32,000 nt of DNA from Candidatus Saccharimonadota bacterium (GCA_041661045.1 JBAZVE010000001.1:120001-152000); one strand, 5' to 3'. Counted from the first letter of the stretch, positions 5,748-31,510 are shown. Notes: a model not told the origin generated them from the letters alone. Program-made: numbers and translations.

Positions 5748-5756
5748 AATGTGGTC

Positions 5757-6303: not shown

Positions 6304-7248
6304 TTAGTTAGTATTTTCTTTTTCCGATTCTACCGGTATTCGAATCTCTTCACCAACATTAATAGTATTTGGATCTTCAAATCCATTAAACTCTGCAATT
6401 TCTTGATAGTCATCTCCAAAAAGTTCGTACATCGTATCGCCAGGTTGAACTGTATATACAGAATAGCCTCCCTCTTCATTATATGTAAGATCTTTTTCTT
6501 CTCCAAAAACAGTAATTAAGGTTTGTTCATAAACAAACATCCCAATTCTTACATACCAAGGTGCTTGGCCCTTTGTTGAGTGCCAGAGTACATCGTCCAT
6601 ATTGTTACTTATATCGCCATCATTGTGGTCGTTAGTTGGTCCGGAATTTATAAGGTCGCCAGAGTCACCTGCAGAAGGGATATCGCTAAAAAATGTTAGT
6701 AAATAACTCACAAATATTCCGATTGGAGTTTCTCCATCCGGATCTATATAGACAATTGGGTTATTTAAAGAATAAGAATAAAAATTCAACATCTGTGGGT
6801 CGAAGATTTTATTTTTCTTTAGAAATTCATTCATATCATTCGTGAATGTGAATTTCCTTTCAGCAAGGTCATCCAACTGTGCCGGATCCTGGCTGGAGAA
6901 TCTTCCTATCTCACTGTCATACCACCGGGCTTCGAAGTAGTAGAGGCCGAGGTCTTCATCGAGCTCTTTGTCTGTGAAGGAGTGCTCTGCGGGAGGCTCT
7001 CCGGTGCCGTCGTCCAGGGGAGTGTTTTGGAGCTCAGAGCCGTAGGGATAGTAGTCGTAAAGCTGGGTTACAAAACCATCCTCGTTCGTGATGAGGGCGG
7101 TTCCTCCCAAGTGGTCCTGGTGGAAATAGGAGAGGACTCCGTCTTCCAGTGCAGCCACCCTCTGGCCCCCGGCGAAGAGATAGCTGGTGAGGGTGCCGGG
7201 AGACACCGGTTCCGTTCCGCTGCCATCCGCTTTGCCGCGGAGTTCCAT
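6304..7248 (-). CDS. Orphan RHS C-terminal cassette: RHS core end plus a 141-aa variable tip with a LysM domain
   Basis: The frame stays open and homologous to the main RHS up to 7398 (NFNTAHTYSWNIKNQLASSGSKSFSYDASG...), bounded by an in-frame TGA at 7399-7401. The first ATG is at 7248. Core FTDKELDEDLGLYYFEARWYDSEIGRFSSQDP...NFYSYSLNNPIVYIDPDGE. LysM YTVQPGDTMYELFGDDYQEIAEFNGFEDPNTINVGEEIRIP. Confidence 0.8.
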   Translation of the reverse strand: MELRGKADGSGTEPVSPGTLTSYLFAGGQRVAALEDGVLSYFHQDHLGGTALITNEDGFVTQLYDYYPYGSELQNTPLDDGTGEPPAEHSFTDKELDEDLGLYYFEARWYDSEIGRFSSQDPAQLDDLAERKFTFTNDMNEFLKKNKIFDPQMLNFYSYSLNNPIVYIDPDGETPIGIFVSYLLTFFSDIPSAGDSGDLINSGPTNDHNDGDISNNMDDVLWHSTKGQAPWYVRIGMFVYEQTLITVFGEEKDLTYNEEGGYSVYTVQPGDTMYELFGDDYQEIAEFNGFEDPNTINVGEEIRIPVESEKENTN

Positions 7249-7433: not shown

Positions 7434-8054
7434 TCACCATGAAAAAGAATTCTTAATGATTTTACCCAAAATATCCAACCAATTCAGCTCAGTGTCTGCA
7501 CCCACTTCGTAACAAGTACGAGCTTTCAAACAATCCTCTCCCGTGAGATCCATTTCAAACACCGCCCGATCAGTTTCAGGTATCTCTTCTAGAGATAAGT
7601 AATATTCCGCTTCACCACTTGTTATATCAAGCACAACAAACCTGGGGAGATCATTTTGGTCATCATACATTAGAATCTTTCCATTCGAAGTATCCACTCC
7701 TCCCCAGTAGCTTATATTTCCCTCTGCATCCGTTCCCGTACCCCTCTCAACATTTCCTTCTATGTATAGTTTATCTTCATGAAGTCTATACCAGTACAAG
7801 TATCGAACCAAATAATCATCATACTTAAAATCCATCAATTGGAGTTTCTCCATATCTGTGGGCCATCTCCAAACTTGGAACCTTCCATCACTAAAATGAA
7901 TATATTTATCTTGATCGTATATCTCATACTTTAAATTGGGATCTTTTTCAATGAAGATATAGGTTTCCAAGCAACCCCTAAAAAAGACTACTCCTAGAAG
8001 GACAAGGGCGATAATACCAACTGTCTTAGCCGTTTTTCTAGAAAGCTTATTCAT
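7434..8054 (-). CDS. N-terminally anchored 206-aa protein; candidate immunity protein of the main RHS tip
   Basis: ATG at 8054-8052 lies inside TATGAATAA, overlapping the RHS stop (8049-8047). Begins MNKLSRKTAKTVGIIALVLLGVVFFRGC. The longer 7434-8123 ORF would overlap the RHS gene by 77 nt. Confidence 0.65.
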   Translation of the reverse strand: MNKLSRKTAKTVGIIALVLLGVVFFRGCLETYIFIEKDPNLKYEIYDQDKYIHFSDGRFQVWRWPTDMEKLQLMDFKYDDYLVRYLYWYRLHEDKLYIEGNVERGTGTDAEGNISYWGGVDTSNGKILMYDDQNDLPRFVVLDITSGEAEYYLSLEEIPETDRAVFEMDLTGEDCLKARTCYEVGADTELNWLDILGKIIKNSFSW

Positions 8055-11000: not shown

Positions 11001-13821
11001 GTCCATAAGCATTGACTGTGTAGGTGGAGCCAAACCATTGATTCCCTTCACTGAGCCAAGATTTTTCACTCGTAAGATTCCCCGTGGAAACATTCCCGAG
11101 CGGGAGGCCGTCGTAGGTGCGACGGCTTTTAGCGATTGCGGAGCCGCTTGCATCTTTCAAGATCTCTTCTGAGATTTTGTTGCGAATTAGCCCGGAGCTG
11201 TCCGCTGCGTACGCATAGGATAGTACGGTTTTTTCGTGCGCATGAGGAATATCCACAAATCCTCCGCTGCTGTCCGCCGCCACTTCACCGAAGTTTGTAA
11301 CTTTAAATATATTTCCGTCCGCATCGTATTGATAAGTTGTAGCTTTGTCCTTGTGAGCGCTGCCACCGAAGTCCATGGAAACACTGGCGGTTTTGTACAC
11401 AAAATCATTTTCATAGCCAAGATCCAAGGTTTCCCACGAGTCCCAGACTCTTTGGAAAAGATTGCCGGACTCATCATAAACTTCCGTTTTATAGGCGCGG
11501 CCGATGAGTGGAAACTCTTCTTGATGGTAATAAGAAATGGTTTCCTTTCCCTCCTCACTGCGCGACACCGTTTCGAAGCCGGCGAACTGACGGTTCATTT
11601 CATCTTCATACAAATATTTTCCACCGGAGTAGTCGTAGGTGATGGTGCTTTCTTCCCCAAGGCCATCCGAAGTGGTGACACTGGAGACCAAGTTCATCAC
11701 AAAGGGCATGGCGGGGTTATCGAAAGAGGTGGAGGGCGCATAGGAAACTGTGGTTTCCGCCCCTTTGGAGTGATGAATGGTTTCGAGCAGTTCTGGAGTG
11801 GCGTTGTTGAGATACATTCTTTTAGTGCTGCCCCCATGGGACTCAGAAAAAACCACATCCGCAAAGTTATCCCCATCCACATCAAAAATCTGAACGCCTT
11901 TTGGGGTTCTATAACCTTCTGCAAAACTCACGGGGACCGTATAAGCACTGCCTTCGTCCCATCCCGTCCCATCTCCCTTATTAATATATACGGCATTCTC
12001 AATGCTGGAATCTGCCGAGTAAACAATGTCCGCTAAGCCATCTCCATTGACATCCACCATTTCTGCAACATCCATCATGATATCTCCGCTATCCCAGAAA
12101 TAGATTGGGATGCTATAACTACTTTCTTCAGTCCACCCCGTTCCATCGCCACGATTGAGATAAACAGATTGGTAGGGACTCCCTTGATACCTTGATTCTA
12201 TAATATCCACCAAGCCATCTCCATTAATGTCTGCCAGTTTTACACCCTCGTCATCCTCTCCTTCAGAATTAAAAATAACTGGTATGGATATCTCGCTCAC
12301 TTCTTCCCATGTTTCCATTTCTGGATTGAAGAGGTAGATATTCTTTGAAATACCACCGTGACTCAAAGACTGAACAAAGTCAGGGAAAGAGTCTCCATTG
12401 ATGTCCATAACACGAATCCCCTCATCGGCCATATAACCACTATTGAACCTTAGTGGAATCGAGTAAGTGGTGTCTTCAACCCAAGAGGAAGACGCCTCGT
12501 CAAAGATGTAGCCTACCCGAACATCGCTAGAGGATTCCATGGAAGCATAAACGATATCGTTGAATCCATCTCCGTTCAAATCACTCATACGCGTACCCCT
12601 CATATAATTTCCTCCTGTTCCCCAAAAAGAGACAGGAATTGAATAGCTTGTATCTTCGGTCCAGCCTGTTCCATCGCCGTTATTCACATAGACCTCTCGG
12701 TAAGTTCTTCCACTATCGTAGTAGGAATTGAGAAGATCCATAAATCCATCCCCATTGACATCACTGATGTCCACACCTTTATCTTCATTTCCTCCCTCCA
12801 CATAAAAATACACCGGGATCTCGTAGCCGCTTACTTCTTCCCAGCCTTTTTCGCTCTCGGAATATTCAAAACTTGTAGGGTGGAGCGTGCTTACTTCACC
12901 AGTCGTGCTTTGAGCGGATTCCGTGACAGAAGAGAGTAAGGATTGAACGGTGTCGTCCGGGGTGGAGTAATCGAGACTGTATTTTCGAGTCCATACCCCA
13001 TCAACAAATGCGGTGATCTCACTGACTCGATAATCGGTTTGAACTTCAAAGCCGGTATTGTAAAAAGAAGAAACATCTTCTCGGCTCTCCAAAGTGAATT
13101 CAATGGCAAAAGATCCATCGGTGGATCCATGTCCGGTATAATGGATGCTTTCTGGATAAATTTGCCCATTCTCTTCAAAGTATTCGTATCGTACAAAGTT
13201 ATCATTGGAGTCTCGCACTTCCTCAAGCATCCACTTGTAGACGCGGCTTGCATCTGCCGGGTCCTCTTGCCTACTTTCAGCGGCTGCCCCAAAACTATAA
13301 ACGGTTCCGGACTTATCTGTAACAGACCAAGAGTTGTCCGAATTGAATGAGTAATTTAGAAAAGAGCCATCCTCGACTTTACTGCTGTACTCCCCGTAAG
13401 GACTTCCACTTATGGGAACAAGCTCTCCACTGAGTGAAGAACTAAAATTGTTTTCGTCGTACATGGTATTTACACCGGTTTTGTTGAGTCGCGTGATTGC
13501 AGGGATACCCAGTGACCAACCGGATCCATAAAAACTATCCCAGCCCATGCCTTGGCTGTTGTAGTTTAGGCTGAGAGAGGGCTGCAAGCCACTGCGCCCC
13601 GCAGGCAGAGTGAGGGGAAGAGAATAAGTGAAAGCTCCACTAAAAGAGCTGTCTTGCGCACCTTGGTCCAATCGAACCCGACTGTTATTGATTTCGTAAG
13701 TCTGATCATAAAACCCTTCGTTGTTATTTGTAGCATCTGCAAAGCTTCTAGGCGCGAAACTTGTGAATGCAAAAAAACTCAGCAGAAGGGTGGATAGGGC
13801 TCTCACTTTTTGGCTGAGCAT
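8047..13821 (-). CDS. Secreted SpvB / FG-GAP / RHS-repeat polymorphic toxin (TcB-TcC-like fusion), 1,924 aa
   Basis: Signal peptide MLSQKVRALSTLLLSFFAFTSFAPRSFA. SpvB-like FTYSLPLTLPAGRSGLQPSLSLNYNSQG..GWSLGIPAITR. Six DxNGDGxxD FG-GAP/VCBS repeats (aa ~350-660). Many YD repeats. RHS core end ...YYFEARWYDSAIGRFSSQDP...NNPVNITDPTGE. Confidence 0.95.
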   Translation of the reverse strand: MLSQKVRALSTLLLSFFAFTSFAPRSFADATNNNEGFYDQTYEINNSRVRLDQGAQDSSFSGAFTYSLPLTLPAGRSGLQPSLSLNYNSQGMGWDSFYGSGWSLGIPAITRLNKTGVNTMYDENNFSSSLSGELVPISGSPYGEYSSKVEDGSFLNYSFNSDNSWSVTDKSGTVYSFGAAAESRQEDPADASRVYKWMLEEVRDSNDNFVRYEYFEENGQIYPESIHYTGHGSTDGSFAIEFTLESREDVSSFYNTGFEVQTDYRVSEITAFVDGVWTRKYSLDYSTPDDTVQSLLSSVTESAQSTTGEVSTLHPTSFEYSESEKGWEEVSGYEIPVYFYVEGGNEDKGVDISDVNGDGFMDLLNSYYDSGRTYREVYVNNGDGTGWTEDTSYSIPVSFWGTGGNYMRGTRMSDLNGDGFNDIVYASMESSSDVRVGYIFDEASSSWVEDTTYSIPLRFNSGYMADEGIRVMDINGDSFPDFVQSLSHGGISKNIYLFNPEMETWEEVSEISIPVIFNSEGEDDEGVKLADINGDGLVDIIESRYQGSPYQSVYLNRGDGTGWTEESSYSIPIYFWDSGDIMMDVAEMVDVNGDGLADIVYSADSSIENAVYINKGDGTGWDEGSAYTVPVSFAEGYRTPKGVQIFDVDGDNFADVVFSESHGGSTKRMYLNNATPELLETIHHSKGAETTVSYAPSTSFDNPAMPFVMNLVSSVTTSDGLGEESTITYDYSGGKYLYEDEMNRQFAGFETVSRSEEGKETISYYHQEEFPLIGRAYKTEVYDESGNLFQRVWDSWETLDLGYENDFVYKTASVSMDFGGSAHKDKATTYQYDADGNIFKVTNFGEVAADSSGGFVDIPHAHEKTVLSYAYAADSSGLIRNKISEEILKDASGSAIAKSRRTYDGLPLGNVSTGNLTSEKSWLSEGNQWFGSTYTVNAYGLVERVVDAKGNALDMNYDSNNLYPASTTNALSQTTSTVYEAATGQLLSSVDANGFTRSNTYDGFGRVLTSSIPHPTFGTSVLVSTSSYDDDSFPSSVSTESTVDGISMETVSYFDGLGRAIQSNTSAEGGVYTTVDFWYDERGNLASQSFPYETSSSIFGRDASAYSTEMSYDALSRPLTVVTPVSTETHDYSPWMEEVTDGNGNSKTYLYNAAGALSAVREKNGIDTYTTTYDYDDRGLLLTLTDSQGNLRNFGYDSLGRKTLQEDLHDPAEGDFGEWTYTYDKNGNLVSQVDPAGQSLTWGYDPLNRMVFEDWDAGTSAKDVSFVYDTAINGVGKIHKILMTNFSVINDKYDSLGNLAKETRKLDTIPYIFQYEYDVLSRLKKIAYPSFAATVNYEYNTAGLLEKVTEGTGATLRDIVSDMDYSPSSQTASTTYGNGTVTTNVYDPAQAYRLTGKSTTGIYDPLFTSTSWTEIQDLSYSYDNVGNILEILDTSTSPTAKTISYAYDDLNRLLSAETTGLSGGDYSETYEYDSLGNMVYKSDIGSLLYEGTGSSSGTHSGANPHAVTSVDGIAYTYDSKGNLTGNAAHTYSWDRKNQLSSSGSKSFSYDATGTRWKTVDSARGTVDYYLGRYGELRGKADGSGSEPASDGTELYYLFAGSQRVAALKIPPETPVGDAALTYYHQDHLGGTALTTNEEGFVTQLYDYYPYGSELLDSSLDDGSGPAPADHSFTDKELDEDLGLYYFEARWYDSAIGRFSSQDPAQLDDRIFQILTDPQSLNFYSYSRNNPVNITDPTGELSTTTYLATFFVPGVREIYTAGLTLAWGLQFSNPITSSLLSHSLELNPGSVSINEGNQSEWGNVIDSIKGTDEFQSKVGEIVSNAEFNGQTSIEGTDGQRGLRLNETSDLKMSIGTAGMQVTGSQLENGAWDLDVSISDKYHFDAGFEYSGGATYDALNTGAAAAQTTGFISEFTESINFDYTYE
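8050..8604 (-). other. Variable C-terminal tip (185 aa) of the RHS protein, after DPTGE
   Basis: Sequence after DPTGE (LSTTTYLATFFVPGVREIYTAGL...INFDYTYE) has no similarity to the orphan tip beyond the first ~12 residues and matches no family I recognise. Confidence 0.7.
8605..9249 (-). repeat. RHS core-end block homologous to the orphan cassette at 6730-7398
   Basis: The protein alignment is continuous from AHTYSW to DPxGE. DNA stretches are near-identical, e.g. gtcataccaccgggcttcgaa(a/g)tagtagaggcc(a/g)aggtcttcatcgag. Confidence 0.85.
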
Positions 13822-22938: not shown

Positions 22939-23259
22939 ATGGCTACCATTGTTACAGATCAAAACTTTACGGATGAGGTTTTATCTTCTAAAGTCCCCGT
23001 TCTTGTTGATTTTTTTGCCGAATGGTGTGGGCCTTGCAAGATGATTGCTCCAGTTGTGGAAGAGCTGGCTCATGAATACGAAGGCAAGGCGAAGGTCGTG
23101 AAGTTGAATGTGGATGAATCTATGGACACCGCTCAAAAATATGGAGTGATGAGCATTCCTACTTTGATTTTCTTTAAGAACGGTGAAGAAGTGGACCGCA
23201 GTGTTGGCTTGATGTCCAAAGATGCAATGGGAGAAACCCTCGATCGTTTGGCGGCTTAG
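22939..23259 (+). CDS. trxA: Thioredoxin
   Basis: 106 aa, [38 protein letters not shown] (WCGPC active site). The upstream part of the 22684 ORF is antisense to the hydrolase gene. Confidence 0.93.
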
Positions 23260-23265
23260 CCTTCG

Positions 23266-23676
23266 CTACGCTTTGGCTTGTCTCTGAGCCTCTTTTTGGG
23301 CGCGCATGTCACAATCTTCGTTTTCGGGGTGGCCGTTGTGGCCTTTCACCCAGTTCCAGGAGATTTTTTTCCCTTGGATGAGGGGCGTTAGAAGCTCCCA
23401 AAGATCCAAATTCTTGTGGCGCTTCCAGTTTTTGGTGAGCGTGTTCAGCACCCAAGAAGAATCGCTGTAAAGCTCCATTTCTCGCTCTTCCGGGTGGGTT
23501 TTGGCCAACCATTTGAACGCTTCAATCACGGCGCTGAGTTCCATGCGGTTGTTGGTGGTGTACGGTTCCCCTCCCTGATCCCGATGAATTTTTCCATCGA
23601 TTTTTATGAGGGTAGCCCACGCTCCCGGCCCCGGATTTCCAAGGCAACTTCCGTCGGTGTAGATTTGAATCTTCAT
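23266..23676 (-). CDS. rnhA: Ribonuclease HI
   Basis: MKIQIYTDGSCLGNPGPGAWATLI..TNNRMELSAVIEAF..LYSDSSWVLN..WVKGHNGHPENEDCDMRAQ. Confidence 0.9.
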   Translation of the reverse strand: MKIQIYTDGSCLGNPGPGAWATLIKIDGKIHRDQGGEPYTTNNRMELSAVIEAFKWLAKTHPEEREMELYSDSSWVLNTLTKNWKRHKNLDLWELLTPLIQGKKISWNWVKGHNGHPENEDCDMRAQKEAQRQAKA

Positions 23677-23760
23677 GGACCCAATTGTAGCAAAGTTTTT
23701 TGGAATAAAAGAATTGACTTGAAAAAAGCTCCCCATCCCACTAAGATAAGCCAGCCTTTT

Positions 23761-23835
23761 GCGGGTGTCGTATAGTGGCTATTACCACAGCCTTCCAAGC
23801 TGTTGAGAGGGGTTCGATTCCCCTCACCCGCTCCA
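23761..23835 (+). tRNA. tRNA-Gly (anticodon UCC), CCA encoded
   Basis: Acceptor GCGGGTG/CACCCGC, anticodon stem ACAGC/GCTGT with loop CTTCCAA, T arm AGGGG-TTCGATT-CCCCT, discriminator T, CCA. 75 nt. Confidence 0.9.
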
Positions 23836-23838
23836 TTA

Positions 23839-23871
23839 AAAAACGGTGGCCCAAGGTGGCCAGCGGTTTTT
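23839..23871 (+). terminator. Imperfect GC stem-loop with a T-run after the tRNA (A-tract upstream, so possibly bidirectional)
   Basis: aaaaacggTGGCCcaaggtGGCCAgcggttttt: TGGCC/GGCCA stem with a 6-nt loop, extended by CG/CG and A:T pairs. Confidence 0.45.
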
Positions 23872-24000
23872 AACCGTAGTTGAAGGAGGGAAAGAGAACC
23901 CGTAGGGTTCGATACTCCCTAGGAGTGAGTGTCGCGGAAATCTGTGCGCACGCACACTTTTTGAATGGCGGATGGCTCTCTTAAGCCGAAATTTTGACCA

Positions 24001-24024
24001 AAATCTGTGCCCGGGCACAGATTT
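24001..24024. repeat. 24-nt perfect palindrome AAATCTGTGCCCGGGCACAGATTT; its half-site also occurs at 23938-23947
   Basis: The palindrome is self-complementary over all 24 nt. aaatctgtgc recurs as a direct copy 63 nt upstream. Confidence 0.8.
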
Positions 24025-24062
24025 CCATGACCGAGCGACGACGGGAGAGTGAGCGAAGCGAT

Positions 24063-24081
24063 ATTCCCCTCACCCGCTCCA
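24063..24081 (+). repeat. Direct duplicate of the tRNA-Gly 3' end (att-like core)
   Basis: attcccctcacccgctcca is identical to 23817-23835 (end of T loop, 3' T stem, 3' acceptor strand, CCA). Confidence 0.85.
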
Positions 24082-24105
24082 GACTATTAAAATTTTTAAT
24101 AGTCT
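24081..24105. repeat. 25-nt AT-rich perfect palindrome AGACTATTAAAA-T-TTTTAATAGTCT abutting the att-like repeat
   Basis: 12-nt arms are exact reverse complements. It lies 25 nt beyond the 3' end of the 24131 gene and could be a hairpin/terminator or a protein-binding site. Confidence 0.7.
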
Positions 24106-24130
24106 GCAGGACTTAGAGCTATTTTTGAAT

Positions 24131-25357
24131 TTAAGCGTCCATAAAATGGATCATGCCTTGGATGCCATTTGAATATACTTTTAGCCGTATTTCTTCATAG
24201 GGGCGTTGGATGGATCTCCCTTCTTCTATGATACTGGTTAGAGTTATTGCCTCTTTCTCTCCTCGAGGTGGCTTCCGAAAACCCATCTTCACTAAACTCA
24301 CGGGTGCTCTTTTTACCCACCTAAGATCCCCATGTGCAAGGATGGAAGTTTGATATGAAAGATAGGCACCTATGTTTCTAGGTTGCACCCACAGTGGTAA
24401 TGACTCTCTATTGTGGAATGTATTGAGCGCATAGGCGACCTGAGTTTCATTTTCACGTAATTGTAGGAATTCACGAATCGTTTCTTCTGAATTTCTGGTT
24501 GAAATATCAGGCGTTAGATCCGCTCGGTGCATCACTTCGGTTCCTTCAGGCCCTGTTAGTCCAAATGCGTCGAAAGGTCGAGTCACATCAAAGTAATCGC
24601 CGTCTAAATCTCTTGTAAGTCCCTCTAGGTCAAAATCAGCCGCTGGCTCGTGGGGCTTGAATAAACGCGCTTGGTAGAATAATACTCCTCCATTTCTTTC
24701 TCCCCATTCCATTTGGAAAGAGTGACTGTAGGGCATCAAGCCACTTTCTTGCACCTTTCTATATAATGCTAAAACCTTTTTGGTCACAGGGCTTAAGTCT
24801 CTATCAGCTTCTGTAAAAGTGTATTCTGAGAATTCATGTGCGATCCTAAAAACTCCTCTTTGGTGTGGATGCTCAATGATTGAACCCGATTGACCCTCAT
24901 TATGATCTTGGACGAGAATTCCTACCTGTCCATCAAAGGGTTTTCCCGTTTCATACTCCACATAGGCTGCCACATCTTCACTCGTGGAGTCGGCACGTAC
25001 CCTTTCAATGGCTGCGAGCACTGCATCCCTTCCGCGGACTTTTGCTTCACTTGGAATCACATCCACCATCCCAAATACATCCAAGGGGTGACAGGCGCGT
25101 ACTATTTTCTGTCGACTGAAGTCTATTCTTTCTAAAATTCGGACAGGGTCTTCGCCTGGAGCAAGGTAAACCGTGCCCGAAGGTAAATGTTCGCGAAGAT
25201 TTGCTTGAGTGTCCCGCAAAAATGCATGCGAGCCAGCTTTACTACCGCCCTTTTCCATTAAATATCTTCGAGCGTCTGCATTCTCCCAACGGATGCTTTC
25301 TGAACTCATTGCACTCGGAGTTTTGTAATAAGAATGAATCTTACACGAACTGCTCAT
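24131..25357 (-). CDS. PPDK_N/PEP-utilising-family ATP-grasp-like protein with an unassigned C-terminal half (no phospho-His swivel domain)
   Basis: GGSKAGSHAFL (cf. GGKxxxL), VGILVQDHNEGQSGSIIEHP (cf. vvVQxMvxxxxSGVxFTxxP), FQMEWGERNGGVLFYQARLFKP (cf. DIEWaxxxgxlyilQaRP). ATG at 25357 chosen; the track's TTG at 25366 and an ATG at 25309 are alternatives. Confidence 0.6.
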   Translation of the reverse strand: MSSSCKIHSYYKTPSAMSSESIRWENADARRYLMEKGGSKAGSHAFLRDTQANLREHLPSGTVYLAPGEDPVRILERIDFSRQKIVRACHPLDVFGMVDVIPSEAKVRGRDAVLAAIERVRADSTSEDVAAYVEYETGKPFDGQVGILVQDHNEGQSGSIIEHPHQRGVFRIAHEFSEYTFTEADRDLSPVTKKVLALYRKVQESGLMPYSHSFQMEWGERNGGVLFYQARLFKPHEPAADFDLEGLTRDLDGDYFDVTRPFDAFGLTGPEGTEVMHRADLTPDISTRNSEETIREFLQLRENETQVAYALNTFHNRESLPLWVQPRNIGAYLSYQTSILAHGDLRWVKRAPVSLVKMGFRKPPRGEKEAITLTSIIEEGRSIQRPYEEIRLKVYSNGIQGMIHFMDA

Positions 25358-25398
25358 GAGGGGCAATTTGATACATCAAAAACCCTGCTCCTTCAAAA

Positions 25399-25415
25399 AG
25401 GTTCTAATAGTGTCT
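25399..25415 (-). promoter_or_regulatory. Island upstream motif, degenerate copy (M1)
   Basis: Plus strand aggttctaatagtgtct matches the first 17 nt of the 31-nt motif with one mismatch. It sits upstream of a putative TTGAAG-N17-TATCAA promoter of the 24131-25357 gene. Confidence 0.5.
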
Positions 25416-25452
25416 CACAGTAAGGCTACTCTCTTTTGATGTTGTTCAGCCA

Positions 25453-25851
25453 CTAAGCACTGGCCCATCCCGACATCAATGCTAGAAATTGTGGTGCTGC
25501 TGGAGCTGATTTCGTTCCATTCATTACGGAGATAGAGCTTGGGCCTAAGACGACTGTAAAAGCTGGTTGATTTGGAGACTCACCTCTTGTAGGGTCATAG
25601 AAAAACATCTGTACCCTGCCTGGATCACCATCGGCAGATTTAACATCAAAGCTACTGGCTCCTAATTGAGTAGGTAGCCTTCTACCGTCCCTAACTGTTA
25701 TGGGTTCACCTGGGCGGCTTGCTTCACCTTGGGACCCTATGATGCCCTCGAGTTTTTGCATAAGGGTCGCACGGCCTGTATCCATTGGTGTACCTGTTGG
25801 GATGTTGGCACCACCTCCGACATAGCGACCTCCTTCTCTGGGTGTATCCAT
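25453..25851 (-). CDS. Hypothetical 132-aa soluble Gly/Pro/Ser-rich protein
   Basis: ORF with its own promoter (TTTGCA-N17-TATAAT). No hydrophobic segment and no recognisable family. Confidence 0.55.
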   Translation of the reverse strand: MDTPREGGRYVGGGANIPTGTPMDTGRATLMQKLEGIIGSQGEASRPGEPITVRDGRRLPTQLGASSFDVKSADGDPGRVQMFFYDPTRGESPNQPAFTVVLGPSSISVMNGTKSAPAAPQFLALMSGWASA

Positions 25852-25880
25852 GGGTGATATGGTTAAAATTTAGTATCGTA

Positions 25881-25909
25881 ATTATAGCATAAATTTTTTA
25901 TTATGCAAA
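25881..25909 (-). promoter_or_regulatory. Sigma70-like promoter of the 132-aa gene
   Basis: Minus strand TTTGCA (25909-25904), 17-nt spacer, TATAAT (25886-25881). ATG 31 nt downstream of the -10. Confidence 0.55.
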
Positions 25910-25938
25910 TTTGCCTTGCGGATGCTGCTCCCGCAGGT

Positions 25939-25969
25939 AGGTTCTAATAGCGTCTATAGTGCAGCTCCA
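25939..25969 (-). promoter_or_regulatory. Island upstream motif copy M2 (31 nt)
   Basis: Plus strand aggttctaatagcgtctatagtgcagctcca differs at one position from 30008-30038. Confidence 0.6.
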
Positions 25970-26030
25970 TCCTCGTCGCAGACGAGTCGTTCCCATTAAG
26001 GTGCCCCGAATGGGGTGATTTTTATTTTAT

Positions 26031-26771
26031 CTATGCATCTTGCATTACCCTCCTCTCTATTTGATCTAAGAGTATATCTGGCAAATCTCTTCGTTCACTC
26101 ACTTCTATCACCTCTTGTCCAGGCTGGAGTAGAAAAGTTTGTTTCGGCTTGAAGTTAACACCAACTATATTTGCTACAGCCAAGTCTTGCCTGTCCCGTT
26201 CCATTGATCTAGTCGCTTTTGCTAGGAGCTGCACCACGCTTGACTCTTCTGTAAGAAGCTTAAATCCTACCAGAAAAATTCCTTCACGAGTGGTTTTTAC
26301 TTGGGAAATAATTTTAGCAAGGGCAACTAAGTGTAAATCTAATCCATTTCCATCTGAGGCAATTTTCCCATCTACTTTTTGGGGTCCGTAGTCAGAAGCA
26401 GCCATCGCTAGAATGGCGATGTCCATATCTGGGCGAGCAACGCGCTCCAACAGACTCCTCTGATAATGATCAAAATCTGTAACAGGACTCAGGGTTAACC
26501 GGTCAGAAATGGCACGGTAGTTTTCAATTGCAGATCGTATTCTTTGCAATTCAGTTTCAATATCAACTTCTGGGTCTGCCATCAATTCTCTTCCAAATGG
26601 AAGCCTTGCATTTTCTGCATGGACATAATCAACTTTATGCCCCCTTAAAAGAGCTACTTCCGCGATAGCTGCACCCGTAGTTCCTTTGGAACGATTGGTT
26701 AGAATTCTGACGTCATCAACGGGTACCGCAGTGCCGCCACTCGAAATAACAAAATTTAGTGGTTTTCTCAT
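26031..26771 (-). CDS. CoaB/DFP-family ligase (phosphopantothenate--cysteine ligase-like), stand-alone
   Basis: FVISSGGTAVPVDDVRILTNRSKGTTGAAIAEVALLRGHKVDYV (cf. E. coli Dfp [26 protein letters not shown]). AMAASDYGPQKVDGKIAS..LDLHLVALAKII (cf. AAVADYR..KIKK..L.L..NPDI). FLVGFKLLTE, DLAVANIV. Confidence 0.78.
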   Translation of the reverse strand: MRKPLNFVISSGGTAVPVDDVRILTNRSKGTTGAAIAEVALLRGHKVDYVHAENARLPFGRELMADPEVDIETELQRIRSAIENYRAISDRLTLSPVTDFDHYQRSLLERVARPDMDIAILAMAASDYGPQKVDGKIASDGNGLDLHLVALAKIISQVKTTREGIFLVGFKLLTEESSVVQLLAKATRSMERDRQDLAVANIVGVNFKPKQTFLLQPGQEVIEVSERRDLPDILLDQIERRVMQDA

Positions 26772-27619
26772 GTAACAATTGCTAATGATTGTAAGGCCTG
26801 TCCTACTGATCCCTTCCCCAAGTTGTCAAATGCGACATGGACGGTAAACCGTGATCCTTCTTGCACCCAATACACATGTACTTCATCGGTCCCCACTACT
26901 TCGCCCCATTGAGGAGTCTTGTTACGGTGCACCACTCGCCCTGAAGTGAAAGGGTGCTCTGAATAAGGAACCTCTTCGGAGGTTTTTAAGTCGCCATGAA
27001 TAGCCATGGTCGTACCACGGTAGCGTCTAGCCAACTGAGGGACCATTCTTAGTTCTAGCGCTTGTACGCCCAGATTGCTTTTGATTTCAGGAATATGAGG
27101 ATGATTCAAGCCTGTATTTGGGACAATAAGGTCTTGTTCTGGATTCTCTTCAAAAAAAGTAACCCATTTTTTCCCACCCGTTGAGGCTCCACCAATGGCT
27201 TCAATATGAACCGCACTCCTAGTGTCGATTTGATTTCTTATAGGCCACAAGGCCAAGGAAGCGGCTGTAGCAAAACATCCCGGCCCGACAAGTCGAGTTG
27301 TTCCTTTTATAAGTTGTGGATTCAATTCTGGCAATGCATACTCCCATCCTTCTTTGCCTCGATGGATTCCAGAACAATCATAAATAACAAGACCGGGGTT
27401 GATGGCAGCTATTCCTTCTACTACCTCCAGACTATGCCTACGCGGAATGGCAGAGACTACTGCAGTGCAGTCCATCAAGGCTTTTACCTTTGCCTCGTAC
27501 GAAGCCGTTCTCCAATCTAGATCAGGGGACCCCAGTTCAAAATCTTCGTGTGAGTCAAGCCTCCTCACAAACTCCGCCCCAATTGGCCCTGTTTTTCCTA
27601 AAAGGAGTACTTTTTTCAT
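26768..27619 (-). CDS. ArgC/LysY-family N-acyl-gamma-glutamyl-phosphate reductase-like dehydrogenase (short form, 283 aa)
   Basis: MKKVLLLGKTGPIGAEF (NAD(P) fold). Active-site LVGPGCFATAASLALWPI (cf. ArgC VPGCYPTAAQLALKPL). IGGASTGGKK, NHPHIPEI, AFDNLGKGSVGQALQSL (cf. DNLLKGAAAQAVQ). ATGA overlap with the CoaB-like gene. Confidence 0.8.
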   Translation of the reverse strand: MKKVLLLGKTGPIGAEFVRRLDSHEDFELGSPDLDWRTASYEAKVKALMDCTAVVSAIPRRHSLEVVEGIAAINPGLVIYDCSGIHRGKEGWEYALPELNPQLIKGTTRLVGPGCFATAASLALWPIRNQIDTRSAVHIEAIGGASTGGKKWVTFFEENPEQDLIVPNTGLNHPHIPEIKSNLGVQALELRMVPQLARRYRGTTMAIHGDLKTSEEVPYSEHPFTSGRVVHRNKTPQWGEVVGTDEVHVYWVQEGSRFTVHVAFDNLGKGSVGQALQSLAIVT

Positions 27620-27620
27620 G

Positions 27621-28181
27621 TTATTTAATTAATTCGCTGGGCTCCCAGCTAAACATATCTCTAGTTACTCTACCCATTCCTTCTGGAGCCGACTCTCGTG
27701 GAAAATATCTATACTCTGTATGCTCATTAGATAGTTGGATCGCATTTGGATCACCCTCTACGTCAAGCAGATAGCCATGAACGACATAAAGTCGACCCCT
27801 CTTAACCTGTACCGCCCGCCTAACGGCAATTTTCCTTGCTACTACCGTGTTGAGAGCGGTTTCTTCAAAGGTTTCTCTCCTCACCGTTACATCTAATGGC
27901 TCTTTCCCAACGATATTCCCAGCTATTCTCAGAAACTCACGTCTCCCGCCTGGGAAACACCATTCGTTTGGGTATGATCTATCAAAGCTAGGTCTTTTCA
28001 AAAGCAACTTTTCCCCTAATGGATTCTGAATAATGCCTATTGCAACTTCAATAAGCTCCGGCTTGGCTCCACTTTCACACATGGCCACCCACAGTTCTCT
28101 TACCCTTTTCCATTCTGTTAAAGGGTCTTCAATTTCCTCTGCATGTGCCCACAATATGTTTTCCTTGGTCTCAATGGCCAT
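27621..28181 (-). CDS. Nudix hydrolase
   Basis: Nudix box GNIVGKEPLDVTVRRETFEETAL (Gx5Ex7REUxEExGU with G to A at the penultimate position). 1-nt gap to the ArgC-like start. Confidence 0.8.
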   Translation of the reverse strand: MAIETKENILWAHAEEIEDPLTEWKRVRELWVAMCESGAKPELIEVAIGIIQNPLGEKLLLKRPSFDRSYPNEWCFPGGRREFLRIAGNIVGKEPLDVTVRRETFEETALNTVVARKIAVRRAVQVKRGRLYVVHGYLLDVEGDPNAIQLSNEHTEYRYFPRESAPEGMGRVTRDMFSWEPSELIK

Positions 28182-28205
28182 TGCCTTCTTTAAAAATAGT
28201 TTCGC

Positions 28206-28237
28206 ATTTTGACACTTAATTTAGATCCTGTCAATCC
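28206..28237 (-). promoter_or_regulatory. Sigma70-like promoter upstream of the Nudix gene, paralogous to the promoter at 29959-29990
   Basis: Minus strand GGATTGACAggATCTAAAT...; TTGACA (28234-28229), 17-nt spacer, CAAAAT (28211-28206). Confidence 0.5.
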
Positions 28238-28279
28238 TTTCCAGACCCTCTTCAGGACTGTTTTTGCGCTTGTCTATGC

Positions 28280-29938
28280 TTACATTAGACTACCTGAATA
28301 CCAAGAATACAGAGCAGGTGGAGAACCTTCTTTCCAATGTCTTACCCGAGAGGAACCGTCTGAACTAAAAATAATATCCATTTCATTGAGGCCAGTTTCT
28401 GCATCTTTTCCCAACTGTAAGACTCCATGTTCTTCATCAAATACAATAAATCCACTTTGAATTGCACTTGAAACTCCTGTAAGAAAATTCGCCCTACGCG
28501 CGTTTGCGTTTGGAAATTTTTCTTGTAGTTTAGTGGTTAAAAACCTTACTGGATCTACATCCCCAACTTGCAATGCAATACTTCGCCTCACTAGCATTAA
28601 AGCCTCTCGTAATTCATTGTTGGTTTCTATTTCATTGGCATCCCAATTCTCTATTCTTCTACCACGAACGGATTCTGCATAGTTAGGGTCGAATATCATT
28701 CGAGCATAACGCTTTTGCAGATAATCAGGCAGATCGCTTGGTATAATGGGTTCGAGTTCTGAGGCTGGACGCCAATTTGGCAGACTTATAGCTAAACCAT
28801 TAGCTATATCTTGTCCGCGTGATGACCAGAGTTCAGAATAGTAGGATTCTAATTGAGTTCCTACGCTATCAAGTTCTTGGAGTATGGAAGGATATTCCCT
28901 GAAGTACCACCTGGCTCTGGCTATGTCTTGTCTTGCATAGACTACACTTCCAAAAATAAGATGATTCTTCCCTCTTGATATCTGGTCTTCTGTATATTGC
29001 TTGATCCTCTCCAGTAAAACTGTCCTGATAGCATCAGCGATGGATTGAGCCCTAGCTTCAGATTTGTCTTGCGTTTCACACAATTCAAGCGAAGCAAGAT
29101 TGACTGCTAAATCATGAACTGCTGAGCCAGTCGTTGAAAGTACCGGGTAACTAAGGGGTTGTTTAGTAATGTTACGGAATCTCTCGAGACTGGCCTCGAA
29201 TCGTGGGTTCAATAAATTGCTTGCGGTGGCCACCACTTGATCCTTGAGGTTTTTAGTACTAGCGAAATCTAGAAAAGCTTGAAGTGCCTCAACTTCCGCT
29301 AGCAATGCCCCATCCATATGGGAATATCTATGGAATGTGTCTTTGATACAATGCTTTACAATCTCAGGATTCGCTAAATTATCAGCTGTCAGCAACTCGT
29401 TGAGCCAATAGTTGTTATCTATGTCCGGAAAAAATTCGCTCATGTTCTCTCTTTCAACCCAGGCTAAATAAGGTGCTCCTTGAAAGCAGTGTGGAATATG
29501 TTCCGCTAACCTAGCAAAAGCCTGCTGCGCCACTTTGGGTGAACATCCGCACTCCTCGGCCATCCACCACAATATTTCGGAAAAATTTTCGGGCGATTTT
29601 ATTCGATTGACCCCAGCTAGTTTTTCATCATCCTCTCCTGCCCATTCAGATATTTCAGGATAGTACTTAGCTAAAATAATTCTGTTTCTCAAGCTCAATC
29701 CTCTTATAGCTTCAGGTGTCAGATATTCGTGGAGTGCCATAAAACAGCTAGCCTTTTCTTCCCATGTGAGACCCAGTTCATAAATATCAAAAAAGACCTT
29801 TGTGAATTCCCCAGGGTTATTTACTAAATCCTGGCCTCCCTTCTCTTTTGGATCACCAAACCCATAGGGAGTACTCCAGGTCGATTCCTCTGCTCCACGG
29901 AGCGGGGATGCAGTATGTTCAGATTGAGACTTACTCAT
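28280..29938 (-). CDS. Hypothetical 552-aa alpha-helical protein, paralog of the 30107-31510 product
   Basis: Shared blocks with the 467-aa protein: NPGEFTKVFF/DPGNFLTYFA, AKYYPEIS/AKYFPNLN, SEFFPDIDNNYW..NPEIVKHCI/REYFPDFDLQAW..HPEVVERIA. No family recognised. Confidence 0.7.
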   Translation of the reverse strand: MSKSQSEHTASPLRGAEESTWSTPYGFGDPKEKGGQDLVNNPGEFTKVFFDIYELGLTWEEKASCFMALHEYLTPEAIRGLSLRNRIILAKYYPEISEWAGEDDEKLAGVNRIKSPENFSEILWWMAEECGCSPKVAQQAFARLAEHIPHCFQGAPYLAWVERENMSEFFPDIDNNYWLNELLTADNLANPEIVKHCIKDTFHRYSHMDGALLAEVEALQAFLDFASTKNLKDQVVATASNLLNPRFEASLERFRNITKQPLSYPVLSTTGSAVHDLAVNLASLELCETQDKSEARAQSIADAIRTVLLERIKQYTEDQISRGKNHLIFGSVVYARQDIARARWYFREYPSILQELDSVGTQLESYYSELWSSRGQDIANGLAISLPNWRPASELEPIIPSDLPDYLQKRYARMIFDPNYAESVRGRRIENWDANEIETNNELREALMLVRRSIALQVGDVDPVRFLTTKLQEKFPNANARRANFLTGVSSAIQSGFIVFDEEHGVLQLGKDAETGLNEMDIIFSSDGSSRVRHWKEGSPPALYSWYSGSLM

Positions 29939-29958
29939 GATTTAGACTACGGTTGGCT

Positions 29959-29990
29959 AGTATAACAATAAGATTTAGATATGTCAATCC
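29959..29990 (-). promoter_or_regulatory. Sigma70-like promoter of the 552-aa gene
   Basis: Minus strand GGATTGACAtATCTAAAT; TTGACA (29987-29982), exactly 17 nt, TATACT (29964-29959). ATG 20 nt downstream. Confidence 0.6.
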
Positions 29991-30007
29991 TCCCGTGTCT
30001 CCAAAAA

Positions 30008-30038
30008 AGGTTCTAATAGCGTCTATGGTGCAGCTCCA
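30008..30038 (-). promoter_or_regulatory. Island upstream motif copy M3 (31 nt)
   Basis: Plus strand aggttctaatagcgtctatggtgcagctcca lies just upstream of the -35 of the 552-aa gene promoter. Confidence 0.6.
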
Positions 30039-30106
30039 AGAGGTTTACAGGTCAAAAGAACGAGATCCCAATATCTCCAAAATCAGCTTTTTGACCGTAA
30101 TCTGGG

Positions 30107-31510
30107 TCAGATGTCCCCCTTTATAGCTATACTCGGGAAAAGATCGCGAAGACTTGCGATGCGGGGATCTGGGTTAACTGTCGATCTGGCAGCATTACGG
30201 AAGAGACCTTGTACAGCGCCTATAACCCGTGGATCGTCGGTTACGGCCTCAGTAAGATATACCAGCTCACGGTCACTCCAATCCCTACCCCCGTTCAGCC
30301 AAGACAAAAAATTCTCAACACGATTAAAATTCAAAACAATGGGTGGCTTCAAATCTGGATCCCTATGAATAGCCACTTCCCTATCCAGCAAATAATCTCG
30401 GACTATTGGATCAGCCAAGAACATATCTGCCCATTGCTTGAGTTTTTCTGAATGACCTACTCGACTTCTATCTTTATCTCTTTCCCGTCCACTCATCTTT
30501 TGGAATTTGGCTCTCATCTCCGCTTCAATTCGGTCTATAATGGAAGCGATAGCGTCTTTTGTTTGTAAGGAGATTTCTCTTGATCCCTGTTCATCCACTA
30601 ACTGTTTAAGAAGAAGGGTTATTCCAACGAAAAAGGAGATAGTTGGTGTCGAGTGCAGAGCTTTAATATCCTGGTCGCGAACTGATCTAGACACTCCCTC
30701 AATTTCACCATTAAATCGCTTCATAAGTGCTTCTCGGGTCATAGCCCTAACAACTTCTTCCTTTTCATAGCGCTCAGCTAGAGTGAAAAAACTTTCCAAC
30801 TCAGCCAGCATTTCTTGTTCAGTAGGTGTAATCCTATACGGCCTACCCTGAATAGCATGAGCTATCCGTTCAACAACTTCAGGATGACTTTCTATGTCCT
30901 CCATGAGTCTGGGCTCCCAGGCTTGAAGGTCAAAATCTGGAAAATATTCTCGTATTTTACGCCGGTCAGTAAAGACCAGATCAGGCCTATCCCCCAAGAT
31001 TTCAGGTGTCTTTCCCTCTAATTTTTTCATGCATGCCTCTCCCACTTGTAGATTGCACCGGGACATAAGAATAGATCCGAGCAACTCATCATATGAAAGT
31101 GAGGGGTCACCTGTAGAAAGTCTTTCCAACTCACTGGTAAAGTAGCTTGGGAAGACAGCCTCCTCCTCCCCACTGATACTATTCAAGTTAGGGAAGTACT
31201 TGGCCAGTTCCCTTCTTATTGCATAAGAAGCCCTTTGAACAGACTCCACCAAAAGTTTACTGCGTTGACGATCACTTAGAAGTGCGTCCAAGGCATCAGC
31301 AATAATCTTTCTGTAATCCTCATCCTCTAAAAGGCGTGTATACTCCTGAGTGCGTGCAAAATAGGTAAGAAAGTTTCCGGGGTCTTTTTTAATCTCTTCG
31401 CAATGCCACAATGCTAATTCGCACTCGCCTTTTTTCCCTGTATCTGGTGCTTGATCTTTTAACATTTTTGGATTGGAGTAAATGGTCAATGCAGAGTCGG
31501 GACCTGCCAT
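30107..31510 (-). CDS. Hypothetical 467-aa alpha-helical protein, paralog of the 28280-29938 product
   Basis: Long ORF with TTGACA (31552-31547) upstream. Colinear similarity blocks to the 552-aa protein. No family recognised. Confidence 0.7.
   Translation of the reverse strand: MAGPDSALTIYSNPKMLKDQAPDTGKKGECELALWHCEEIKKDPGNFLTYFARTQEYTRLLEDEDYRKIIADALDALLSDRQRSKLLVESVQRASYAIRRELAKYFPNLNSISGEEEAVFPSYFTSELERLSTGDPSLSYDELLGSILMSRCNLQVGEACMKKLEGKTPEILGDRPDLVFTDRRKIREYFPDFDLQAWEPRLMEDIESHPEVVERIAHAIQGRPYRITPTEQEMLAELESFFTLAERYEKEEVVRAMTREALMKRFNGEIEGVSRSVRDQDIKALHSTPTISFFVGITLLLKQLVDEQGSREISLQTKDAIASIIDRIEAEMRAKFQKMSGRERDKDRSRVGHSEKLKQWADMFLADPIVRDYLLDREVAIHRDPDLKPPIVLNFNRVENFLSWLNGGRDWSDRELVYLTEAVTDDPRVIGAVQGLFRNAARSTVNPDPRIASLRDLFPSIAIKGDI

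What the first reader, a model, noticed from the sequence alone, without database searches (positions are those of the whole stretch)
23817..24105. tRNA-Gly 3' end duplicated 227 bp downstream, flanking a palindrome-rich non-coding spacer (att-like scar at the island boundary)
The last 19 nt of tRNA-Gly(UCC) (attcccctcacccgctcca, 23817-23835) recur exactly at 24063-24081. Duplication of the segment from the T loop to CCA is the classic footprint of tyrosine-integrase integration into a tRNA gene. The enclosed 227 bp encode no plausible protein. They contain a terminator-like hairpin, three copies of AAATCTGTGC (23938, 24001, and inverted at 24015, the last two forming a 24-nt perfect palindrome), and then a 25-nt perfect palindrome that abuts the second repeat. 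These could be arm-type protein-binding sites. No integrase is present, so this is either a decayed island or satellite remnant, or the left border of the 7.4-kb cluster that follows.
Basis: partly seen in the sequence, partly recalled or inferred. Interest (0 to 1): 0.6.

Follow-up and report, generated by a model that had tools for sequence, protein, structure and literature searches.

The report
Structured mini-insert at tRNA-Gly end
The exact 19-base copy of the tRNA-Gly 3' end is real, but the DNA it encloses is a conserved, folded non-coding module that recurs at this tRNA in related Peribacteria (candidate-phyla-radiation, CPR) genomes and is swapped or lost exactly at the 19-base repeat, so it is not a decayed integration scar.

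Summary
All sequence observations are confirmed: tRNA-Gly(UCC) at 23761-23835, its last 19 nt repeated exactly at 24063-24081, the terminator hairpin and both palindromes.

The genome is a Peribacteria ("Gracilibacteria") CPR bacterium. Six relatives, seven with the window, carry the same layout behind the same RNase H-tRNA-Gly pair. The layout is a terminator hairpin, then a 129-208 nt element ("X"), which in six of the seven ends in the exact 19-mer, followed by another hairpin.

X is more conserved than the neighbouring RNase H gene. It folds into helices P0-P5, of which P1-P4 are backed by compensatory changes: 196 Watson-Crick, 6 G.U and 2 mismatched pairs.

The sequences that follow each 19-mer are recombined between genomes exactly at the 19-mer. 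One genome has two units in tandem. One has a HicBA cassette flanked by X's 3' half plus the 19-mer. Other relatives lack X.

No recombinase lies in the window or next to any X. A sister lineage has a large serine recombinase abutting the same tRNA.

Best reading: a non-autonomous, tRNA-Gly-targeted recombination module carrying a structured RNA-like element with no Rfam match. The main rival is a stand-alone tRNA-derived ncRNA.

The parts
23719..23747 (+). Sigma-70-like promoter of tRNA-Gly (TTGAAA-17-TAAGAT)
   Evidence: It is the only promoter-like site in 23200-24700, and none lies in front of X.
23761..23835 (+). tRNA-Gly(UCC), intact, with encoded CCA
   Evidence: ARAGORN; Rfam RF00005, 59.4 bits.
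23817..23835 (+). Core copy 1: the last 19 nt of the tRNA, from T-loop A58 to CCA
23836..23873 (+). Terminator-like hairpin 'termW' directly after the tRNA
   Evidence: It is 37/38 identical in L066. Other genomes have a different hairpin at this position.
23874..24081 (+). Element X, subtype X1 (208 nt): purine-rich leader, helices P0-P5, and a tail equal to core copy 2
   Evidence: Alignment A2, RNAalifold, pair counts, nhmmer E=1.5e-42, fold z=-4.4.
23889..23893 (+). P0 5' strand (GGAAA), pairing with TTCCC at 24064-24068 inside core copy 2
   Evidence: 86% of cells paired. There is no covariation because the 3' side is invariant. L048 keeps ATATTCCCC but has lost the rest of the 19-mer.
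23896..23910 (+). P1 hairpin GAACCC-GTA-GGGTTC
   Evidence: Relatives extend it with nested stems and GAA/GCA/GCAA loops. L048 has a U.G pair.
23915..23919 (+). P3 5' strand CTCCC, pairing with GGGAG at 24043-24047
   Evidence: Compensatory changes: other X1 units have CTCAC/GTGAG, L062 has GCAGCC/GGCTGT and L066 has GCTC/GAGC.
23920..23930 (+). Conserved internal-loop block TAGGAGYGAGK
   Evidence: Its complementarity to the 3' tail is not above chance.
23931..23935 (+). P4 5' strand GTCGC, pairing with GCGAC at 24035-24039
   Evidence: L048 has GUUGC/GUGAC, with two wobble pairs.
23936..24026 (+). P2, the hypervariable apical hairpin. Outer stem GGAAATCTGTGC/GCACAGATTTCC. In the window it holds a duplicated hairpin: a first copy whose 3' arm has decayed, plus the perfect palindrome 24001-24024, with 63-nt start-to-start spacing.
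   Evidence: P2 has seven different stem sequences in seven genomes, all paired. The first copy scores as an internal terminator-like site at 23943-23956.
24027..24062 (+). Conserved 3' block ATGACCGAGCGACGACGGGAGAGTGAGCGAAGCGAT, including the P4 and P3 3' strands and the small P5 hairpin at 24053-24059
   Evidence: In L062 this block plus P2 plus the core is duplicated around HicBA.
24063..24081 (+). Core copy 2, the exact 19-mer and 3' end of X
   Evidence: It is exact in 6 of the 7 genomes that carry X.
24081..24105 (.). 25-nt AT-rich palindrome ('hpAT') after core copy 2
   Evidence: L056 has a homologous sequence, AAGTATTAAAATTTTTAATAGTTTG, after its second core.
24131..31510 (-). Variable 7.4-kb gene cluster: 411 aa, 132 aa, CoaB-like, ArgC/Asd-like reductase, NUDIX, 552 aa and 467 aa. 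It is context, not shown to be part of the element.
   Evidence: L066 has a 184-aa ORF plus an APH kinase here, while the flanking EamA is 90% identical. No third core was found.

Best explanation
The two 19-mers bound a small non-autonomous insertion module in the 3' end of tRNA-Gly(UCC). The module is a terminator hairpin followed by a roughly 130-210 nt structured non-coding element, X, whose last 19 nt restore or duplicate the tRNA 3' end.

**Shown**
- The same module family sits at this site in seven Peribacteria genomes.
- It is under constraint, or recently exchanged, and folds into conserved helices.
- Flanking sequences are reassorted exactly at the 19-mer.
- Units occur in tandem, and X's 3' half plus the core brackets a HicBA cassette.
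- Related genomes lack X.

**Inferred**
- The 19-mer is the crossover core of a site-specific recombinase encoded elsewhere. The module is then gained, lost and stacked like a cis-mobilizable (integrase-less, att-flanked) element.
- A candidate enzyme class is the large serine recombinase that abuts the same tRNA-Gly in a sister lineage. A P4-type tyrosine integrase is equally possible.
- X itself is most likely made as a + strand RNA by read-through from the tRNA promoter, or it acts as folded single-stranded DNA. Its role (module cargo, recombination accessory or guide) is unknown.
For: **Recurrence at one site.** X follows tRNA-Gly next to RNase H in the window, L048, L056, L062, L065, L066 and L070 (nhmmer E 1e-25 to 1e-42).

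**Constraint.** X's conserved blocks are 82-94% identical to the window's, against 74-78% for RNase H DNA.

**Structure.**
- RNAalifold recovers helices P0, P1, P3, P4, P5 and the base of P2.
- 90.7% of cells are paired, against 32-53% when partners are slid.
- Seven pairs carry double changes, against 2.4 +/- 1.2 in shuffles (0 of 500 reach it).
- A manual parse gives 196 Watson-Crick, 6 G.U, 1 A.C and 1 other pair. P2 is different in all 7 units.

**Core-delimited shuffling.**
- Window: core | termW | X1 | core | hpAT
- L066: core | termW | X2 | core | term56-like
- L056: core | term56 | X1 | core | hpAT
- L058: core | term56 | no X

**Tandem and cassette forms.**
- L070 has X1 followed by a truncated X2.
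- In L062, HicBA is flanked by near-identical repeats of about 120 nt made of P2, the 3' block and the core.

**Absence.** X is absent in L047/L067-69, L058-61 and L071.

**Recombinase candidate.** A 490-aa large serine recombinase lies on the reverse strand and ends within about 20 nt of the same tRNA in L047/L067-69.

[quoted passage not shown] Their serine recombinase lies next to attL, and 15 of 31 islands have no integration module (PMC3146451).
Against: - No recombinase lies in the 32-kb window or within 5-10 kb of any X copy.
- The serine-recombinase island in L047 shares no sequence with X, and its far-end repeat was not seen in 9.8 kb.
- No circular or extrachromosomal copy was found in viral, phage or plasmid collections.
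- A covarying multi-helix fold is not what integrase arm sites look like.
- L056 and L058 share the same post-tRNA hairpin although only L056 has X. Simple insertion at the first core therefore does not explain every genome without assuming an ancestral two-unit array.
- The two L062 repeats are about 98% identical, which fits local duplication as well as integration.
- Only seven genomes are available, so the covariation statistics are modest.
Confidence: 0.45

Rival explanations
1. X is a stand-alone host non-coding RNA gene that arose from a partial tRNA-Gly duplication. The 19-nt tail is a functional tRNA-like 3' end, for example for 3' processing, CCA maintenance or protein recognition. 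Each RNA gene has its own terminator. Copy-number changes come from ordinary unequal or homologous recombination, not from a dedicated recombinase.
For: - Covarying helices, GNRA-type and triloop caps on P1 extensions, and G.U pairs favouring the + strand 6 to 1.
- A hairpin follows every 19-mer, just as one follows the tRNA.
- P0 uses the TTCCC of the 19-mer, and L048 keeps exactly that part.
- No recombinase is nearby.
Against: - No promoter lies in front of X, and the tRNA terminator sits upstream of it.
- The window's X contains an internal terminator-like hairpin.
- Neither ARAGORN nor the Rfam tRNA model sees a tRNA-like fold.
- Folding energy does not pick a strand.
- X is missing from close relatives (L058, L047).
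- A 19-nt repeat is short for RecA-driven exchange, yet breakpoints fall exactly there.
- HicBA is bracketed by X halves.
Confidence: 0.3
2. The 19-mer at 24063 is the inner border of the 7.4-kb cluster 24131-31510. That cluster would be an integrated island whose integrase and far-end repeat have been lost.
For: The cluster is replaced by other genes in the closest relative, L066, while EamA beyond it is 90% identical. GC content is slightly lower than upstream.
Against: - There is no third copy of the core or of X anywhere in the window.
- The cluster has no mobile-element, phage or integrase signatures.
- The homology break between the window and L066 lies inside X, after the leader, not at the 19-mer.
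Confidence: 0.1
3. The spacer is a neutral, decaying scar of an old integrase-mediated insertion. It would have no present function.
For: The exact direct repeat of a tRNA 3' end, with no integrase present, is the classic picture. Partial tRNAs as scars are common, for example in tycheposon islands (10.1101/2020.12.28.424599).
Against: - Neutral DNA would not stay 82-94% identical where RNase H DNA is 74-78% identical.
- It would not keep four or five helices through compensatory changes.
- It would not keep the outer 19-mer perfect in 6 of 7 genomes.
Confidence: 0.05

Closest known systems
Genomic islands integrated in the 3' end of tRNA or tmRNA genes, in particular the Dehalococcoides ssrA-specific islands (PMC3146451)
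   Same: - An exact repeat of about 20 nt of the RNA gene's 3' end bounds each unit, and the RNA gene stays intact.
- Units occur in tandem downstream of the gene.
- About half of the units lack any integration gene.
- In the sister lineage L047/L067, a large serine recombinase lies on the reverse strand directly against the RNA gene, as DsiB does.
   Different: - The unit here is only about 170-250 bp, carries no gene, and consists of a conserved folded element.
- No recombinase is linked to any X copy.
- The target is tRNA-Gly in a CPR bacterium.
Cis-mobilizable elements (CIMEs): att-flanked, integrase-less derivatives of integrative elements, moved by accretion with an autonomous element (my own knowledge; the concept is cited in PMC3146451)
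   Same: Flanked by two copies of the attachment core, with no recombination or transfer genes. Tandem arrangement with other units.
   Different: CIMEs are kilobases long and are recognisably deleted versions of a known parent element. No parent is known here, and the interior is under structural constraint rather than being a remnant.
Tycheposon islands of Prochlorococcus (10.1101/2020.12.28.424599)
   Same: tRNA-anchored flexible islands, with stacked integrations and scattered partial tRNAs.
   Different: There the partial tRNAs are scars next to tyrosine-recombinase elements. No conserved structured module ends in the partial tRNA.
Integron attC sites and integrase-less attC clusters (CALINs) (my own knowledge)
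   Same: Structure is conserved while sequence varies. There is a variable terminal hairpin, a toxin-antitoxin cassette is bracketed by the sites, and no integrase is adjacent.
   Different: No R'/R'' core sites (GTTRRRY / RYYYAAC) were found. The crossover candidate is a tRNA 3' end lying outside the hairpin, and no IntI is present.
tRNA-like RNAs (tmRNA tRNA-like domain, viral tRNA-like structures) in Rfam clan CL00001
   Same: The 3' end is identical to the T-stem 3' strand, acceptor 3' strand and CCA of a tRNA.
   Different: There is no acceptor 5' strand or cloverleaf, and nothing scores with tRNA or tmRNA models.

Membership tests
tRNA-targeting integrative element (attL/attR) | The insert is flanked by direct repeats identical to the tRNA 3' end, and the tRNA is left intact. 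| tested here: met
   The same holds in L056, L062, L065, L066 and L070.
tRNA-targeting integrative element (attL/attR) | Integrase or recombinase gene inside the element, next to an att site. | tested here: not met
   No recombinase domain in the window or in the flanks of other X loci.
tRNA-targeting integrative element (attL/attR) | Empty site in related genomes, with the post-insert flank joined to the tRNA. | tested here: met
   The first 20 nt after L066's second core (AAGAAAACTAAGATACCCCG) match the sequence directly after the tRNA in L056 (19/20) and L058 (18/20). L058 has no X.
tRNA-targeting integrative element (attL/attR) | Excised circular form, or recombination demonstrated at the core. 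| not testable with these tools
   This needs raw reads or experiments.
Cis-mobilizable element (CIME) | Two att sites and no recombination or transfer genes. | tested here: met
   The unit contains only a hairpin plus X.
Cis-mobilizable element (CIME) | A related autonomous element uses the same att site. | tested here: inconclusive
   A large serine recombinase island abuts the same tRNA-Gly in L047/L067-69. It shows no similarity to X and no far-end repeat within reach.
Known structured RNA family (Rfam 15) | Match to a covariance model. | tested here: not met
   Only the tRNA scores. Nothing consistent falls on X at E<=10 in the window or at E<=5 in L065, L066 and L070.
tRNA or tRNA-like gene | Cloverleaf with an acceptor stem formed by the 5' and 3' ends. 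| tested here: not met
   ARAGORN finds one tRNA only, and Rfam finds no second tRNA-clan hit. Leader similarity to the tRNA and loop-to-tail complementarity are not above chance.
Integron attC site | R''/R' core sites (RYYYAAC ... GTTRRRY) closing an imperfect hairpin, with IntI nearby or an attC array. | tested here: not met
   Neither motif occurs in 23836-24110 or in four other units. No integron integrase was found.

The most novel reading that the evidence does not exclude
X, together with the 19-nt tRNA-Gly core, is the recombination site of an undescribed cassette-capture system in CPR bacteria. It would be functionally analogous to an integron platform but anchored on a tRNA 3' end. 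The folded X 3' half (variable hairpin plus conserved block) would play the attC-like role, possibly as RNA or single-stranded DNA that helps a trans-encoded recombinase find the tRNA-Gly core. Small cassettes such as HicBA, or X itself, would be inserted, stacked and excised there.
Probability: 0.12. Interest if true: 0.8.

Novelty: new variant of a known kind. Interest (0 to 1): 0.55.

Why it matters
Mobile-element biology in CPR/Patescibacteria is barely charted. These reduced genomes have few recognisable integrases.

A gene-less, structurally constrained module that is stacked, swapped and lost exactly at a tRNA 3'-end repeat would point to one of two things:
- a minimal "landing pad" that lets cassettes, here toxin-antitoxin genes, accumulate behind an essential tRNA without breaking it; or
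- a new structured RNA with a tRNA-mimicking 3' end.

Either would add a new non-coding family for Peribacteria. Either would also give a concrete handle, a 19-nt core plus a defined fold, for finding the recombinase and testing tRNA-anchored gene flux in these organisms.

Tried and rejected
- **Exact-protein look-ups with the longest ORFs** failed. The shorter RNase H start worked.
- **Viral scan for the 19-mer** gave 45 hits. Most are phage tRNA-Gly genes. Six contigs carry 45-nt partial tRNAs typical of phage att sites, unrelated to X.
- **The metagenome scan** returned two true X loci and two chance hits inside a coding gene (L063, L064).
- **Viral scans for X blocks** found nothing real. 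Phage and plasmid BLAST found nothing.
- **Further RNase H look-ups** mostly returned contigs that stop inside the tRNA.
- **X's leader derived from the tRNA variable loop and T-stem.** Not significant.
- **The conserved loop GGAGCGAGTG pairs with the tail or mimics the acceptor 5' strand.** Not above shuffles.
- **Strand assignment by folding energy** is ambiguous. Only the G.U count favours the + strand.
- **Minus-strand reading as a retroelement primer-binding site** complementary to the tRNA 3' end. Set aside, because no reverse transcriptase is present, wobble pairs favour the + strand, and there is no consistent minus-strand transcription.
- **Riboswitch or leader for Fic.** Set aside, because Fic has its own strong promoter after the hairpin.
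- **Integron attC.** No core sites.
- **A homologue of the L067 serine recombinase** in a viral contig had no tRNA next to it.

Full report
**1.
- ARAGORN and Rfam find a single tRNA, tRNA-Gly(UCC), at 23761-23835 on the + strand.
- Its last 19 nt, ATTCCCCTCACCCGCTCCA (23817-23835), recur exactly at 24063-24081. No other match with up to three mismatches exists in the window, and none appeared in 100 shuffles.
- Also present as described are the terminator-like hairpin 23836-23873, the three AAATCTGTGC copies, the perfect 24-nt palindrome 24001-24024 and the 25-nt palindrome 24081-24105.
- The 227-bp spacer has no ORF above 60 aa.

**2. Context.**
- The gene upstream, on the minus strand, is RNase HI.
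- An identical RNase H is on record from an NCBI MAG named Candidatus Gracilibacteria, on a 1.3-Mb contig.
- The nearest genomes are Peribacteria/Gracilibacteria MAGs.
- The block RNase H-thioredoxin-amidase/SpoIID-TsaB-methylase-DUF1189 is syntenic across them.
- What lies on the other side of the tRNA varies: Fic, HicBA, ParE/MazE, TerC, or the window's seven-gene cluster.
- No recombinase domain was found among the 32 window ORFs scanned with Pfam, nor in the cluster ORFs scanned with PHROGs and NCBIfam.

**3. The spacer is a conserved element, not a scar.**
- Six other loci show the same layout behind the same RNase H-tRNA-Gly pair: L048, L056, L062, L065, L066 and L070. The layout is a hairpin, then an element I call X (129-208 nt) which, in every locus except L048, ends in the exact 19-mer.
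- L048 keeps X up to ATATTCCCC but has lost the last 12 nt.
- nhmmer scores for X range from E=1e-25 to 1e-42.
- X's alignable blocks are 82-94% identical to the window's, while RNase H DNA is 74-78% identical.
- X has two subtypes. X1 is in the window, L056, L065, L048 and the first unit of L070. X2 is in L062, L066 and the second unit of L070.
- Rfam finds nothing on X in the window or in three other loci. Phage, plasmid and IMG/VR searches find nothing either.

**4. X is folded.** RNAalifold on the seven units gives these helices:

| Helix | Pairing | Window coordinates |
|---|---|---|
| P0 | purine-rich leader with TTCCC of the 19-mer | 23889-93 / 24064-68 |
| P1 | GAACCC / GGGTTC | 23896-901 / 23905-10 |
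| P3 | CTCCC / GGGAG | 23915-19 / 24043-47 |
| P4 | GTCGC / GCGAC | 23931-35 / 24035-39 |
| P2 | apical hairpin | outer stem 23936-47 / 24015-26 |
| P5 | small hairpin | 24053-59 |

- On this structure 90.7% of cells pair, against 32-53% when partners are slid. Seven pairs carry changes on both sides, against 2.4 +/- 1.2 in shuffles, a value reached by 0 of 500 shuffles.
- A hand parse of the helices gives 196 Watson-Crick, 6 G.U, 1 A.C and 1 other pair.
- P3 has four different sequences: CTCCC/GGGAG, CTCAC/GTGAG, GCAGCC/GGCTGT and GCTC/GAGC. P4 has three. P2 is different in all seven genomes.
- P1 is lengthened in three genomes by nested stems capped with GAA, GCA or GCAA loops.
In the window that hairpin is duplicated, with 63-nt start-to-start spacing.
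- Folding energy does not choose a strand. The 6-to-1 excess of G.U over A.C favours the + strand, as RNA or single-stranded DNA, but this is a small sample.
- No promoter precedes X. Transcription, if any, would be read-through from the tRNA promoter, and that step is inferred.

**5. The 19-mer behaves as a recombination core.** The sequence after each copy is modular:

| Genome | Arrangement |
|---|---|
| window | core - termW - X1 - core - hpAT |
| L066 | core - termW - X2 - core - term56-like |
| L056 | core - term56 - X1 - core - hpAT |
| L058 | core - term56, no X |

- The first 20 nt after L066's second core match those directly after the tRNA in L056 (19/20) and L058 (18/20). This is the signature of an insertion at the core.
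- L070 has a complete X1 unit followed by a second hairpin and a truncated X2.
- In the complete genome CP064962.1 (L062), a HicB-HicA pair with its own promoter is bracketed by two near-identical repeats of about 120 nt. Each repeat consists of P2, the 3' block and the 19-mer, and the outer core has one mismatch.
- X is absent in L047/L067-69, L058-61 and L071.
- L066 is the window's closest relative: EamA is 90% identical in protein, and the RNase H-tRNA spacer is 88% identical. Yet it has the other X subtype and different genes between X and EamA.

**6. Which enzyme?**
- None is linked to X.
- In L047/L067-69, a 490-aa large serine recombinase (Resolvase + Recombinase + Zn ribbon) lies on the reverse strand. 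It ends within about 20 nt of the same tRNA-Gly and is followed by LexA-like and MmeI-type genes.
- That layout matches the Dehalococcoides ssrA islands. [quoted passage not shown]
- This is a lead, not a demonstration. That island shares nothing with X, and its far end is outside the DNA I could fetch.
- A P4-type tyrosine integrase would fit the 19-nt identity equally well (my own knowledge).

**7. Verdict.**
- The best-supported reading (about 0.45) is a gene-less, att-flanked module family specific for the tRNA-Gly 3' end. It is gained, lost and stacked by recombination at the 19-nt core through a recombinase acting in trans. Its body is a structurally constrained element, probably an RNA.
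- The main rival (about 0.3) is a host ncRNA derived from a partial tRNA-Gly copy, reshuffled by ordinary recombination.
- The reading that the 19-mer is the left border of the 7.4-kb cluster lacks a second boundary (about 0.1).
- The neutral-scar reading is contradicted by the conservation and covariation (about 0.05).
- Tested and not met: tRNA-like fold, integron attC sites, and any Rfam family.
- Two tempting ideas did not beat chance: that the leader derives from the tRNA, and that a loop pairs with the tail.

**8. Limits.** Only seven units from related genomes are available. There is no expression or read-level data. Whether the folded species is RNA or DNA remains open.

Noticed in passing
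window 8047-13821 (-) and 4000-6500: A 1924-aa SpvB/TcdB/FG-GAP/RHS-repeat toxin-like protein. It is followed by a low-GC stretch (0.33-0.36) of small unannotated ORFs, which may be immunity genes or orphan toxin tips.
   Followed up: no
window 24131-31510 (-): A seven-gene minus-strand cluster: four proteins with no family match (411, 132, 552 and 467 aa) plus CoaB-like, ArgC/Asd-like reductase and NUDIX genes. The closest relative, L066, has a 184-aa ORF and an APH-type kinase here instead, while the EamA gene beyond is 90% identical.
   Followed up: partly
L047 about 8000-9800 and L067:1-5928: In a sister lineage, a large serine recombinase ends within about 20 nt of the same tRNA-Gly. A LexA/S24-like repressor, a DUF2188 protein and an MmeI-type restriction-modification enzyme lie behind it. 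This looks like an integrated island at the same site.
   Followed up: partly
L062:4970-5607 (-): In the complete Peregrinibacteria genome CP064962.1, a HicB-HicA toxin-antitoxin pair is bracketed by two repeats of about 120 nt, roughly 98% identical, made of X's 3' half plus the 19-mer. The outer core has one C-to-T change.
   Followed up: yes
L066:7814-7887 (-): A 74-nt tRNA-like sequence with a G3.U70 pair and an ACCA end. It scores 38 bits on the tmRNA model, below threshold, and ARAGORN does not call it. It could be a degenerate tRNA-Ala or a stand-alone tmRNA-type tRNA-like domain.
   Followed up: partly
L001, L057, L097-L100 (contig ends): Six independent Logan assemblies of relatives end at this locus, about 110-160 nt upstream of RNase H. 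Where checked, the break falls inside the tRNA-Gly gene (L057, L097). That fits an assembly-graph branch point here, caused either by shared tRNA sequence or by population heterogeneity downstream.
   Followed up: no
L012, L041, L014, L015/L021, L026, L039 (IMG/VR): Viral contigs carry partial tRNA-Gly copies of about 45 nt, from the anticodon stem to CCA, without a full tRNA. One contig has the copy at both ends. These are classic phage attachment sites on tRNA-Gly and are unrelated to X.
   Followed up: partly
L058:5335-5824: Relatives that lack X carry a MazE-like/ParE-like toxin-antitoxin pair between tRNA-Gly and Fic. Small addiction modules are therefore a recurrent occupant of this slot.
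   Followed up: no
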